DNA of 64,000 bases, from positions 52,564-116,563 of the forward strand of contig JABLTJ010000008.1 in NCBI GenBank assembly GCA_013166775.1, given 5' to 3'. The DNA comes from Promethearchaeati archaeon (GTDB taxonomy: Archaea; Asgardarchaeota; Heimdallarchaeia; Heimdallarchaeales; Heimdallarchaeaceae). Shown piece by piece: positions 46,318-47,053 of this stretch (positions are counted from its first letter, which is position 1; each line of letters begins with the position of its first letter). Made by a program: the position numbers and the translations under genes. The notes beneath the pieces were generated by a model, which worked only from the letters and a program-made list of their open reading frames with translations, was not told where the DNA came from and did no database searches.

Positions 46318-46415
46318 AGGAAAGAAAGAATCTTACATAATAAAAAAGTAACCATCTTGATTATAGTAGAAAAGAAAATTCTTAAAAAGTAATAAATAGG
46401 ACAAAGATTAACTGA

Positions 46416-46506
46416 GCTCCGATAGTATAACGGTTAGTATTGGGGATTGTGGATCTTAATGAGCAAAATTCCCTAGGTGACGGTTCGATTCCGTCTCGGG
46501 GCACCA
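46416..46506 (+). tRNA. tRNA-His(GTG) with 16-nt intron (46453-46468), encoded CCA, discriminator A73
   Basis: Acceptor GCTCCGA/TCGGGGC, D arm, anticodon stem GGGGA/TCCCT, GTG at 46449-46451, T arm GACGG-TTCGATT-CCGTC; canonical BHB motif at 37/38. Confidence 0.95.
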
Positions 46507-46549
46507 AATTTCTCTTTTTTATATTTTTAGGAAAATTTAAAGGAAAGTA

Positions 46550-47053
46550 GTGTTCTCTTTAGATAATCAAGGTGATATGATGCCATGGGTAGATGAAGTG
46601 ATAATGGGAGGAACTTTTGATCATCTTCACCAAGGACATAAGGCACTTTTAGAAGCAGCAATAAGCATGGGTGAATTCATTAGAGTGGGAATAACTTCAG
46701 ATGAATTCGCTAAAAGTCTTAGACGAACTGATTCCCATATACATCTTATGCAACCATTAGCAATTCGAAAAGAAGAACTAGAAAAGTATCTTCTATCTAG
46801 AGGTTGTGAGAAATTTGAGATTATAGTGATAAATGATAGATATGGTTTTGCTCTTAACTCACCTGATGCCGAGGGAATTGTTGTAACTGAAGAAACATAC
46901 CCTACTGCTGTGGACATTAATAAGCTTAGAATAATGAATACTATGGATCAATTACTGATTCTAGTGATTCCTTTTGTTTTTGACGAAAAGGGGATAATTA
47001 TAAGTTCTAGAAGAATCCGACAACAACTAGCTGAAATGACTGAAAAAGAATAA
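46550..47053 (+). CDS. coaD: Phosphopantetheine adenylyltransferase, archaeal/eukaryotic type
   Basis: GGTFDHLHQGH, GITSD, IVVTEET, ISSRRIR. Confidence 0.92.
   Translation: MFSLDNQGDMMPWVDEVIMGGTFDHLHQGHKALLEAAISMGEFIRVGITSDEFAKSLRRTDSHIHLMQPLAIRKEELEKYLLSRGCEKFEIIVINDRYGFALNSPDAEGIVVTEETYPTAVDINKLRIMNTMDQLLILVIPFVFDEKGIIISSRRIRQQLAEMTEKE

What the first reader, a model, noticed from the sequence alone, without database searches (positions are those of the whole stretch)
46415..46506. tRNA-His with eukaryote-type identity: A73 and no genomic G-1
Seen: the 3' end is TCGGGGC-A-CCA (discriminator A at 46503) and the base before G1 is A (46415). Known: most bacterial and archaeal tRNA-His use G-1:C73. 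Eukaryotic cytosolic tRNA-His has A73 and receives G-1 non-templated from Thg1, and some alphaproteobacteria use A73 with no G-1. The D arm (GTATAACGGTTAGTAT) also resembles the eukaryotic form as I recall it. Inference: this archaeon needs either eukaryote-style non-templated Thg1 activity or a G-1-independent HisRS.
Basis: partly seen in the sequence, partly recalled or inferred. Interest (0 to 1): 0.75.

Follow-up and report, generated by a model that had tools for sequence, protein, structure and literature searches.

The report
Histidine tRNA without extra G
This Heimdall-group Asgard archaeon has one genuine histidine tRNA gene that lacks both near-universal marks of histidine tRNA (an extra 5' G and C at position 73). 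It always occurs with an enlarged, remodelled histidyl-tRNA synthetase, which points to a rewired recognition rule and not to the eukaryotic G-adding pathway.

Summary
Window 46416-46506 (+) is the genome's only tRNA-His(GUG). It has G1:C72, A73 (46503), an encoded CCA, A at -1 (46415) and a 16-nt anticodon-loop intron. Independent metagenome contigs and 48 further genomes show the same state. The eukaryote-style reading is not supported. No Thg1/TLP was found in this genome or in any of 83 Heimdallarchaeia genomes, two of them closed, although the same search finds Thg1 in 14 other Asgard genomes. The HisRS is also not of eukaryotic type. A73 without G-1 was seen only in lineages carrying one HisRS clade. 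That clade has about 500 aa, 55-65 extra helical residues in the acceptor-clamping insertion domain, an altered motif-2 loop, and mostly no glycine in the G-1 pocket. The lineages are Heimdallarchaeaceae, Kariarchaeaceae-like, two more Heimdallarchaeia families and Hermodarchaeia, where tRNA and enzyme are adjacent. In 23 of the 24 sampled short-HisRS genomes whose tRNA-His was read, Hodarchaeales included, C73 is kept. The most likely mechanism is G-1-independent charging, as in Caulobacter and Trypanosoma, evolved independently. No biochemistry or 5'-end data exist. I found no published description. Earlier reports of this scan noted the same thing in other Asgard genomes.

The parts
46416..46506 (+). 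tRNA-His(GUG) gene including encoded CCA
   Evidence: ARAGORN; Rfam RF00005 50.6 bits; own tRNA-His covariance models 105 and 74 bits; cloverleaf minimum-free-energy fold
46415..46415 (+). Position -1 = A, so no encoded G-1
   Evidence: Read directly. In 48 genomes with the same tRNA type where position -1 was read, it is T, A, C or (once) G, so it is not conserved
46416..46452 (+). 5' exon, tRNA positions 1-37; anticodon GTG at 46449-46451
   Evidence: Read directly; Rfam alignment
46453..46468 (+). 16-nt intron at the canonical 37/38 site (boundaries may shift by one base)
   Evidence: Insertion relative to the Rfam model. Intronless orthologues exist in congeners. It folds as an extension of the anticodon arm
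46469..46503 (+). 3' exon, positions 38-73; discriminator A73 at 46503
   Evidence: Read directly; unchanged in independent metagenome contigs
46504..46506 (+). Genome-encoded CCA end
   Evidence: Read directly; 47 of 50 tRNAs of this genome encode CCA
46390..46398 (+). A/T-rich TATA-like element 18-26 nt upstream of G1 (inferred archaeal promoter; implies a very short leader)
   Evidence: Sequence only. Weak evidence, because the whole region is AT-rich (genome 33% GC)
46509..46528 (+). T-rich tract directly after CCA (inferred archaeal oligo-T terminator)
   Evidence: Sequence only

Best explanation
This is the functional, single-copy tRNA-His of a Heimdallarchaeaceae archaeon. RNase P most likely cuts its precursor at the ordinary +1 site, the splicing endonuclease removes the intron, and the mature tRNA starts at G1 with no G-1. 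It is charged by a derived 'long' HisRS (506 aa, on contig C87 of the same genome, outside the window) that no longer depends on G-1:C73. The enzyme has filled or altered the G-1 pocket, changed the motif-2 loop, and gained about 60 helical residues in the insertion domain that clamps the acceptor end. Specificity is then expected to come mainly from the GUG anticodon, perhaps with A73. Shown here: the gene anatomy, the lack of any Thg1/TLP match, the strict co-occurrence of tRNA type and enzyme clade, and the residue changes. Inferred: the mature 5' end, G-1-independent charging, and the use of the anticodon.
For: 1. Gene and state. There is one tRNA-His, with A73 and A-1. The state is stable across independent assemblies. 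RNase P RNA is present in the genome (163 bits).

2. No G-1-adding enzyme found. PF04446 and PF14413 give no match at E<=1 in the own genome. PF04446 matches 0 of 83 Heimdallarchaeia genomes. These include the closed genomes CP084166 and CP084167 (named). An Asgard Thg1 protein used as query finds nothing in five A73 genomes. As a positive control, PF04446 hits 14 of 151 phylum genomes, none of them in long-HisRS families.

3. Co-occurrence. A full-length long HisRS occurs in families f1, f3, f4, f6 and f16. All 49 genomes of these families whose tRNA-His I read have A73. Of the 48 where position -1 was read, only one has G there. I read tRNA-His in 24 genomes with a short HisRS. Of these, 22 have encoded G-1:C73 (f5 6, f28 2, f8 1, f9 1, f10 8, f13 2, f18 1, f20 1). 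Two have C73 with T at -1 and also carry Thg1 (G049, G079). None has A73.

4. One origin. The long HisRS forms one clan (SH-aLRT 93). Hermodarchaeia (f16) is nested beside Heimdallarchaeia family f6 (SH-aLRT 96). In f16 the tRNA-His ends about 80 nt upstream of HisRS. In f6 the two genes lie 0.3-10 kb apart. This fits transfer as a pair.

5. Residues. The dipeptide aligned with T. thermophilus Gly72'Gly73' (the G-1 pocket) is EN here, and is ED, EE, DE, DD, KE or KK in most long enzymes. In Caulobacter a pair of aspartates at this site is held to block G-1 binding (PMC4357726). The residue aligned with Tt Arg115 (salt bridges to the G-1 phosphate) is an invariant Thr, and the loop reads R-(D/N)-E-T-x-Q-(R/K)-G-R-V. 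The nearest outgroups (Thermoplasmata, Gemmatimonadota) keep R-Y-E-R/E and a pocket Gly. Long-specific columns 217-239 and 243-275 lie in the all-helical insertion domain. That domain contacts C72-C75 in the Thermus complex (PMC4357726).

6. Nothing distinctive at the acceptor end. G1:C72 with A73 is shared with many tRNAs of this genome (33 of 50 have A73), and tRNA-Glu has a near-identical stem. Identity must therefore lie elsewhere.

7. The enzyme looks active. Motif 2 Arg, the HisA box (RGLEYYTG) and the HisB box (GGGRYD) are intact. It scores 332 bits to TIGR00442 and is the only HisRS in the genome.
Against: There is no direct evidence on the mature 5' end or on aminoacylation, and no RNA run was available.

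The own genome is only 88.7% complete, so absence of Thg1 rests mainly on the relatives.

The residue signatures are not clean. Arg at the Tt115 position is present in only 5 of 11 canonical Asgard HisRS sampled. Family f6 and one f3 genome keep one Gly in the pocket. T. brucei HisRS is G-1-independent yet keeps GG.

The tRNA-His state was not determined for about a dozen families of the phylum (f7, f11, f12, f15, f17, f21-f27). An earlier scan note claims A73 in Loki-type genomes, which I did not test. The strict link to the long HisRS may therefore not hold across the phylum.

Co-occurrence among related genomes amounts to about two independent events, not 49.
Confidence: 0.7

Rival explanations
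1. Eukaryote-style pathway: G-1 is added after transcription opposite A73, by an undetected or non-homologous guanylyltransferase, and HisRS still needs it.
For: A73 with G1:C72 and no encoded G-1 is exactly the eukaryotic cytosolic gene pattern (PMC3245924). Thg1 family members do exist in the phylum. The own genome is incomplete (88.7%).
Against: No Thg1/TLP in 83 of 83 Heimdallarchaeia genomes, including two closed ones, or in 19 of 19 sampled Hermodarchaeia. Archaeal-type Thg1 adds G-1 opposite C73 in a templated reaction and does not do so efficiently opposite A73 (PMC3245924). The HisRS has lost the pocket glycines and the phosphate-binding Arg. The HisRS is not of eukaryotic type.
Confidence: 0.08
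2. Shared ancestry with eukaryotes: A73 arose once in a Heimdall-like ancestor, and the eukaryotic A73 descends from it. On this reading the trait is a true eukaryotic signature whatever the present mechanism.
For: A73 occurs in four Heimdallarchaeia families. [quoted passage not shown]
Against: Hodarchaeales, whose HisRS is nearest to human HARS (220 bits; names), have encoded G-1:C73. A73 tracks a derived HisRS clade that scores only 123 bits to human HARS and that was also passed laterally to Hermodarchaeia. The long-specific motif-2 loop and insertion were not seen in the nearest outgroups sampled.
Confidence: 0.1
3. RNase P cuts one base upstream, so the encoded -1 base is kept and serves in place of G-1.
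For: Aeropyrum pernix HisRS is reported to accept A-1 or C-1 (PMC9976931).
Against: Position -1 varies among close relatives (T, A, C, G). It cannot pair with A73 when it is A, C or G (here it is A). The shifted RNase P cut described in bacteria depends on the G-1:C73 pair (PMC3245924).
Confidence: 0.04
4. Artefact or dead gene: an assembly error at position 73, or a pseudogene with the real tRNA-His unassembled.
For: The genome has 115 contigs and is 88.7% complete.
Against: The sequence is identical in the exons in contigs from other studies. The same state is found in 48 other genomes, including two closed ones where the next-best model hits are tRNA-Gly and tRNA-Gln. Cloverleaf, anticodon, intron and CCA are all intact.
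Confidence: 0.01

Closest known systems
G-1-less tRNA-His / divergent HisRS pair of a clade of Alphaproteobacteria (Caulobacter crescentus; PMC3064791, Ardell and Andersson 2006)
   Same: A73 with no G-1. The tRNA co-varies with a HisRS carrying insertions. The conserved Gly-Gly of the G-1 pocket is replaced by acidic residues (DD in Caulobacter per PMC4357726; EN, ED, EE or DD here). There are signs of lateral transfer of the enzyme.
   Different: G1:C72 here versus the required G1-U72 there. The D-loop has 8 nt here versus 9 nt with U20a there. The Gln aligned with E. coli Gln118 is kept here, whereas Caulobacter has Gly118 (PMC4338351). This enzyme belongs to an archaeal (Thermoplasma-like) HisRS lineage, so the origin is probably independent. 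No biochemistry has been done here.
G-1-independent HisRS of Trypanosoma brucei and Acanthamoeba castellanii (PMC4338351, PMC3561963)
   Same: A73 and G1:C72 tRNA-His without G-1 in organisms lacking Thg1. The trypanosome enzymes are the second-best solved relatives of this HisRS (186 and 181 bits). They also lack Arg at the E. coli 116 position (Ala in 3hri).
   Different: The trypanosome enzyme keeps the pocket Gly-Gly, has a different motif-2 loop (E-A-I-T-R-G-R-R-R) and lacks the 59 long-specific columns of the insertion domain. It is a eukaryotic host enzyme, and its function has been tested experimentally.
Eukaryotic cytosolic tRNA-His system (A73, G-1 added by Thg1 without a template)
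   Same: Gene-level pattern: G1:C72, A73, no encoded G-1.
   Different: No Thg1 found. The HisRS is not of the eukaryotic type. CCA is encoded.
Canonical archaeal tRNA-His (encoded G-1:C73, or C73 with G-1 added by a templated Thg1-like protein)
   Same: GUG anticodon, G29-C41, an archaeal splicing-type intron, and a HisRS of the same superfamily.
   Different: Position 73 is A, not C. No G-1 is encoded and no Thg1-like protein is present. Both canonical variants do occur elsewhere in the same phylum.

Membership tests
tRNA-His (any type) | Cloverleaf tRNA with GUG anticodon | tested here: met
   ARAGORN His(gtg); Rfam tRNA 50.6 bits; cloverleaf fold
Canonical archaeal/bacterial tRNA-His | G at position -1 encoded in the gene | tested here: not met
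   A at 46415; position -1 is variable in relatives
Canonical archaeal/bacterial tRNA-His | C73 discriminator | tested here: not met
   A at 46503, confirmed in independent contigs
Eukaryote-type tRNA-His identity system | A73 with G-1 absent from the gene | tested here: met
Eukaryote-type tRNA-His identity system | Thg1 guanylyltransferase present | tested here: not met
   No PF04446 or PF14413 match in the own genome. 0 of 83 in the class. An Asgard Thg1 query finds nothing in five A73 genomes. The control search is positive in 14 other Asgard genomes.
Eukaryote-type tRNA-His identity system | G-1 present on the mature tRNA | not testable with these tools
   No RNA run holds the locus
Eukaryote-type tRNA-His identity system | HisRS of the eukaryotic cytosolic type | tested here: not met
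   Best solved match is Thermoplasma 1wu7 at 246 bits, against 123 bits for human 4phc. Hodarchaeales HisRS scores 220 bits to the human enzyme.
Caulobacter-type G-1-less tRNA-His/HisRS pair | A73 and no G-1 in the gene | tested here: met
Caulobacter-type G-1-less tRNA-His/HisRS pair | G1-U72 wobble pair | tested here: not met
   G1:C72 (46416:46502)
Caulobacter-type G-1-less tRNA-His/HisRS pair | 9-nt D-loop with U20a | tested here: not met
   The D-loop AACGGTTA has 8 nt
Caulobacter-type G-1-less tRNA-His/HisRS pair | Pocket Gly-Gly replaced in the HisRS | tested here: met
   D-R-E-N-R here. 21 of 25 long enzymes have no Gly at these two sites, whereas all 11 canonical Asgard enzymes keep at least one.
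Caulobacter-type G-1-less tRNA-His/HisRS pair | HisRS descends from the alphaproteobacterial divergent clade | tested here: inconclusive
   No alphaproteobacterial record is among the 80 nearest loci of the species-genome collection, but that scan was seeded by two peptide patterns. The Caulobacter sequence itself was not available to align.
G-1-independent HisRS (functional class) | Charges tRNA-His lacking G-1 as well as or better than tRNA-His with G-1 | not testable with these tools
   Needs an aminoacylation assay

The most novel reading that the evidence does not exclude
The A73, G-1-less tRNA-His of Heimdallarchaeia could be the ancestral state from which the eukaryotic A73 descends. 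On this reading the archaeal ancestor of eukaryotes had already given up G-1:C73, and eukaryotes later restored G-1 by recruiting Thg1 for non-templated addition opposite the inherited A73. This would explain why eukaryotes carry a mismatched G-1:A73.
Probability: 0.1. Interest if true: 0.85.

Novelty: new variant of a known kind. Interest (0 to 1): 0.6.

Why it matters
G-1 (with C73 in prokaryotes) is the textbook example of a nearly universal tRNA identity mark. Proven exceptions are one alphaproteobacterial clade and a few protists. Reviews still list C73 and position -1 as the archaeal rule, and they place the change to A73 in early eukaryotes.

This finding describes an archaeal lineage, within the group closest to eukaryotes, that has A73, no encoded G-1, no Thg1, and a matching remodelled HisRS that appears to have moved between classes as a tRNA-enzyme pair. 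If charging proves to be G-1-independent, it would be the first archaeal case. It would also be a third, independent solution to the same problem, and a natural candidate for an orthogonal tRNA/synthetase pair.

It also bears on the origin of the eukaryotic G-1:A73 mismatch. The evidence here favours convergence, because Hodarchaeales keep G-1:C73.

Tried and rejected
**RNA evidence.** No RNA holder is listed for the locus, so expression and the 5' end could not be examined.

**Covariance models.** The two tRNA-His models (R1, R2) are not isotype-specific at phylum distance. In many families the top hits were tRNA-Glu, Gln, Gly, Asp or Cys. As a result the tRNA-His state stays undetermined for families f7, f11, f12, f15, f17 and f21-f27. 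A BLAST search with a canonical tRNA-His did not help either.

**False leads.** The first f16 candidates were tRNA-Glu with a D-loop intron. The real f16 tRNA-His was found only by scanning next to HisRS. A three-intron candidate beside the f17 HisRS proved to be tRNA-Asp.

**Tree.** The careful IQ-TREE run did not finish in time, so the quick tree (SH-aLRT support only) was used.

**Eukaryote comparison.** No eukaryotic cytosolic HisRS sequences with names were obtained for a joint tree. The comparison with eukaryotes rests on scores against solved structures.

**Fold search.** It returned only HisRS and its paralogues and gave no separate match for the extra helices.

**Literature.** Full-text searches for Asgard with tRNAHis, G-1 or histidyl-tRNA synthetase found no description of this trait. 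Subscription journals are not covered.

**Earlier scan note.** The claim that Loki-type and cultured Asgard archaea share this state was not tested.

**Chance hits nearby.** Weak Rfam hits near the gene (sR20, a CRISPR repeat, Plastid-ycf2 on the opposite strand) were judged to be chance.

Full report
**1. The observation**

The stretch 46416-46506 (+) is a tRNA-His(GUG) gene. ARAGORN calls it and Rfam tRNA scores 50.6 bits, E 1.1e-9. The coordinates below are read from the sequence.
- G1 is 46416 and the base before it is A (46415).
- The acceptor stem is GCTCCGA/TCGGGGC, giving G1:C72 and U3.G70.
- The anticodon is at 46449-46451.
- C72 is 46502, the discriminator A73 is 46503, and CCA is encoded at 46504-46506.
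It missed a 16-nt intron at the canonical 37/38 site (46453-46468).

The precursor folds as a cloverleaf with an extended anticodon arm. A TATA-like A/T block lies 18-26 nt upstream and a T-run follows the CCA. Both are inferences from sequence in an AT-rich region.

This is the only tRNA-His among 50 tRNAs in the 3.85-Mb, 115-contig, 33% GC genome. In that genome 47 of 50 tRNAs encode CCA and none has C73. Contigs from three other studies cover the gene and differ only at intron base 46458, so A73 is not an assembly error.

**2. Which organism**

The nearest HisRS relatives carry the submitter labels 'Candidatus Heimdallarchaeaceae' or 'Heimdallarchaeota'. Two closed genomes of the same GTDB family are Candidatus Heimdallarchaeum aukensis (CP084166) and H. 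endolithica (CP084167). The family codes below (f1, f3 and so on) are those of the genome search tool. The names I could attach are:
- f1 = Heimdallarchaeaceae.
- f3 includes Kariarchaeota FT_008 and RS678.
- f5 = Hodarchaeales.
- f16 = Hermodarchaeota.

**3. Distribution of the tRNA state**

I read tRNA-His genes in 74 genomes of the phylum.

A73 occurs in 49 genomes, and only one of the 48 whose position -1 was read has G there:

| Family | Genomes |
|---|---|
| f1 | 27 (23 of them congeners) |
| f3 | 6 |
| f4 | 2 |
| f6 | 8 |
| f16 | 6 |

In these genes position -1 is T, A or C, and G in a single case.

Encoded G-1:C73 occurs in 22 genomes:

| Family | Genomes |
|---|---|
| f5 (Hodarchaeales) | 6 |
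| f28 | 2 |
| f8 | 1 |
| f9 | 1 |
| f10 | 8 |
| f13 | 2 |
| f18 | 1 |
| f20 | 1 |

Two genomes (G049 in f14 and G079 in f19) have C73 with T at -1, and both carry Thg1. This is the known archaeal templated route. One genome (G025, f2) has U73 and A-1.

The tRNA-His of about a dozen further families could not be found, because my covariance models are not isotype-specific at that distance.

**4. No G-1-adding enzyme**

- The Thg1 families PF04446 and PF14413 give no match at E<=1 in the own genome, which is 88.7% complete.
- PF04446 matches none of the 83 genomes of the class, including the two closed ones.
- An Asgard Thg1 protein used as query finds nothing in five A73 genomes.
- The search works in this phylum. 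It hits 14 of 151 sampled genomes in ten families, but 0 of 13 in f1 and 0 of 19 in f16.
- RNase P RNA is present in the own genome (163 bits).

**5. The partner enzyme**

The genome has one HisRS, on contig C87. It is 506 aa and scores 332 bits to TIGR00442. The motif 2 Arg, the HisA box and the HisB box are intact. Its best solved relative is Thermoplasma acidophilum 1wu7 (246 bits; fold Z 34.6 with 422 of 506 residues aligned). Next come the trypanosome enzymes (186 and 181 bits). Human HARS scores only 123 bits.

Across the class and the phylum two forms separate cleanly.
- The long form is about 495-510 aa and aligns to the query end to end at 35-100% identity. It is found in f1, f3, f4, f6 and f16, and nowhere else in the sample.
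- The short form is about 430-460 aa and aligns in two pieces.

In a search of 1.8 billion cluster representatives, only about six clusters match over the full length before scores fall to the short forms.

In a quick maximum-likelihood tree the long form is one clan (SH-aLRT 93). Its outgroups are Thermoplasmata-type and Gemmatimonadota-type enzymes. Hermodarchaeia is nested beside Heimdallarchaeia family f6 (SH-aLRT 96). In all six Hermodarchaeia genomes examined, the multi-intron tRNA-His(A73) ends about 80 nt upstream of HisRS. In f6 the two genes lie 0.3-10 kb apart. This points to movement of tRNA and enzyme as a pair. In the present genome they are on different contigs.

**6. What changed in the enzyme**

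In the Thermus HisRS-tRNA complex, the G-1 phosphate is held by Arg115 and Arg122 of the motif-2 loop. The base sits in a pocket made by Gly72'Gly73' of the other subunit. The helical insertion domain clamps C72-C75. Caulobacter HisRS has two aspartates in place of the glycines (PMC4357726).

In the long Asgard enzymes I see three changes.
- The dipeptide aligned with the two glycines is EN here. In 21 of 25 long enzymes it is ED, EE, DE, DD, KE, KK, SN or similar, with no glycine. All 11 short Asgard enzymes keep at least one glycine.
- The residue aligned with Arg115 is an invariant Thr. The loop reads R-(D/N)-E-T-x-Q-(R/K)-G-R-V-(K/R)-E, against R-Y-E-(R/E)-P-Q-x-G-R-Y-R-E in most short ones. 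The nearest outgroups keep the canonical loop and a glycine.
- There are 59 long-specific columns (residues 217-239 and 243-275). In the AlphaFold model (pLDDT 81) they form extra helices of the insertion domain.

Three caveats apply. Arg at the 115 position is present in only 5 of 11 short Asgard enzymes. Family f6 and one f3 genome keep one glycine. The G-1-independent T. brucei enzyme keeps both glycines.

**7. Mechanism**

The best reading, at about 0.7, has four steps.
1. RNase P cuts at +1.
2. The intron is spliced out.
3. No G-1 is added.
4. The long HisRS charges a tRNA that starts at G1.

The acceptor end (G1:C72, A73) is shared with many other tRNAs of the genome, and tRNA-Glu has an almost identical stem. 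Specificity must therefore come from elsewhere, most plausibly the GUG anticodon, as shown for Caulobacter, Acanthamoeba and T. brucei (PMC3064791, PMC4338351). This last step is inference only.

**8. The eukaryote question**

Hodarchaeales (f5), in the same class, have a short HisRS of the type nearest to human cytosolic HARS (220 bits, full length). Its motif-2 region is human-like as I recall the human sequence. They pair this enzyme with an encoded G-1:C73 and have no Thg1.

A73 therefore tracks a derived, laterally mobile HisRS clade and not the eukaryote-like enzyme. This favours convergence with eukaryotes. I leave about 0.1 for shared ancestry.

The comparison with eukaryotic tRNA-His itself rests on memory.

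**9. Known or new**

Reviews give C73 and position -1 as the archaeal histidine identity set and rank C73 among the most informative archaeal tRNA positions (PMC9976931). [quoted passage not shown] Lack of an encoded G-1 is common in archaea but goes with C73 and Thg1-like proteins (PMC4338351).

I found no paper describing A73 tRNA-His or this HisRS form in Asgard archaea. The library does not cover subscription journals.

Earlier reports of this scan describe the same state in other Heimdall, Hermod and Loki-type genomes. I used them as leads and re-derived the Heimdall and Hermod parts independently. The Loki claim was not tested.

I class the finding as a new variant of a known kind: a G-1-independent tRNA-His/HisRS pair, here archaeal, of independent origin and with its own enzyme architecture.

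Noticed in passing
L189-L194 (Hermodarchaeia genomes G148, G152, G096, G051, G114, G103), about 80 nt upstream of HisRS: The Hermodarchaeia tRNA-His(A73) genes carry one to three introns (D-arm, D-loop and anticodon loop) and sit directly upstream of the long HisRS as a tRNA-synthetase unit.
   Followed up: partly
L204-L206 (Hodarchaeales HisRS) and L094-L099 (their tRNA-His): Hodarchaeales pair a HisRS of the type nearest to human cytosolic HARS (220 bits; motif 2 F-R-D-G-P-x-K-K-G-R-Y-R-E-F-x-Q-C-D) with a canonical encoded G-1:C73 tRNA-His and have no Thg1. The nearest non-Asgard relatives of that enzyme are labelled Woesearchaeota, DPANN and Clostridia-type Firmicutes.
   Followed up: partly
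L150 (G025:C30:10846-10974, -) and L214: Family f2 of the same order has a two-intron tRNA-His with U73, A-1 and an encoded CCA. Its HisRS-like frame (462 aa) is very divergent and has one in-frame TGA.
   Followed up: no
L162 (G049) and G079:C1:161784-161854: Two other Asgard lineages have C73 with T at -1 and do carry a Thg1-family gene. This is the templated archaeal route, in the same phylum.
   Followed up: partly
L145 (G054:C123:14309-14407) and L300 (G068:C5:3493-3588): Canonical G-1:C73 tRNA-His genes with an intron inside the T-arm or T-loop.
   Followed up: no
own genome, all contigs: 47 of 50 predicted tRNAs encode their CCA end and no tRNA has C73. tRNA-Glu has an acceptor stem almost identical to that of tRNA-His.
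   Followed up: partly
own genome C35:47450-47542 (-) and C45:3259-3912 (-): ARAGORN reports a tRNA-SeC(tca) with a 16-nt intron, and a 'tRNA-Stop(tta)' with a 561-nt intron. The second is probably a false call.
   Followed up: no
window 46571-46622 (+) and 46851-46887 (+): Weak, sub-threshold Rfam matches to the C/D-box sRNA sR20 (19 bits, E 0.27) and to a CRISPR repeat model (E 0.85). Both lie inside the ORF at 46550-47053 and are probably chance.
   Followed up: no
L254-L294 (Gemmatimonadota, Vicinamibacteria and Verrucomicrobiia records): The closest non-Asgard relatives of the long HisRS in the species-genome collection are short (about 420-430 aa) enzymes of Gemmatimonadota and a few other bacterial phyla, plus Thermoplasmata. 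They share the N-terminal G-F-R-D-F-Y-P-E-D motif. This suggests an archaeal-type HisRS circulating in those bacteria.
   Followed up: partly
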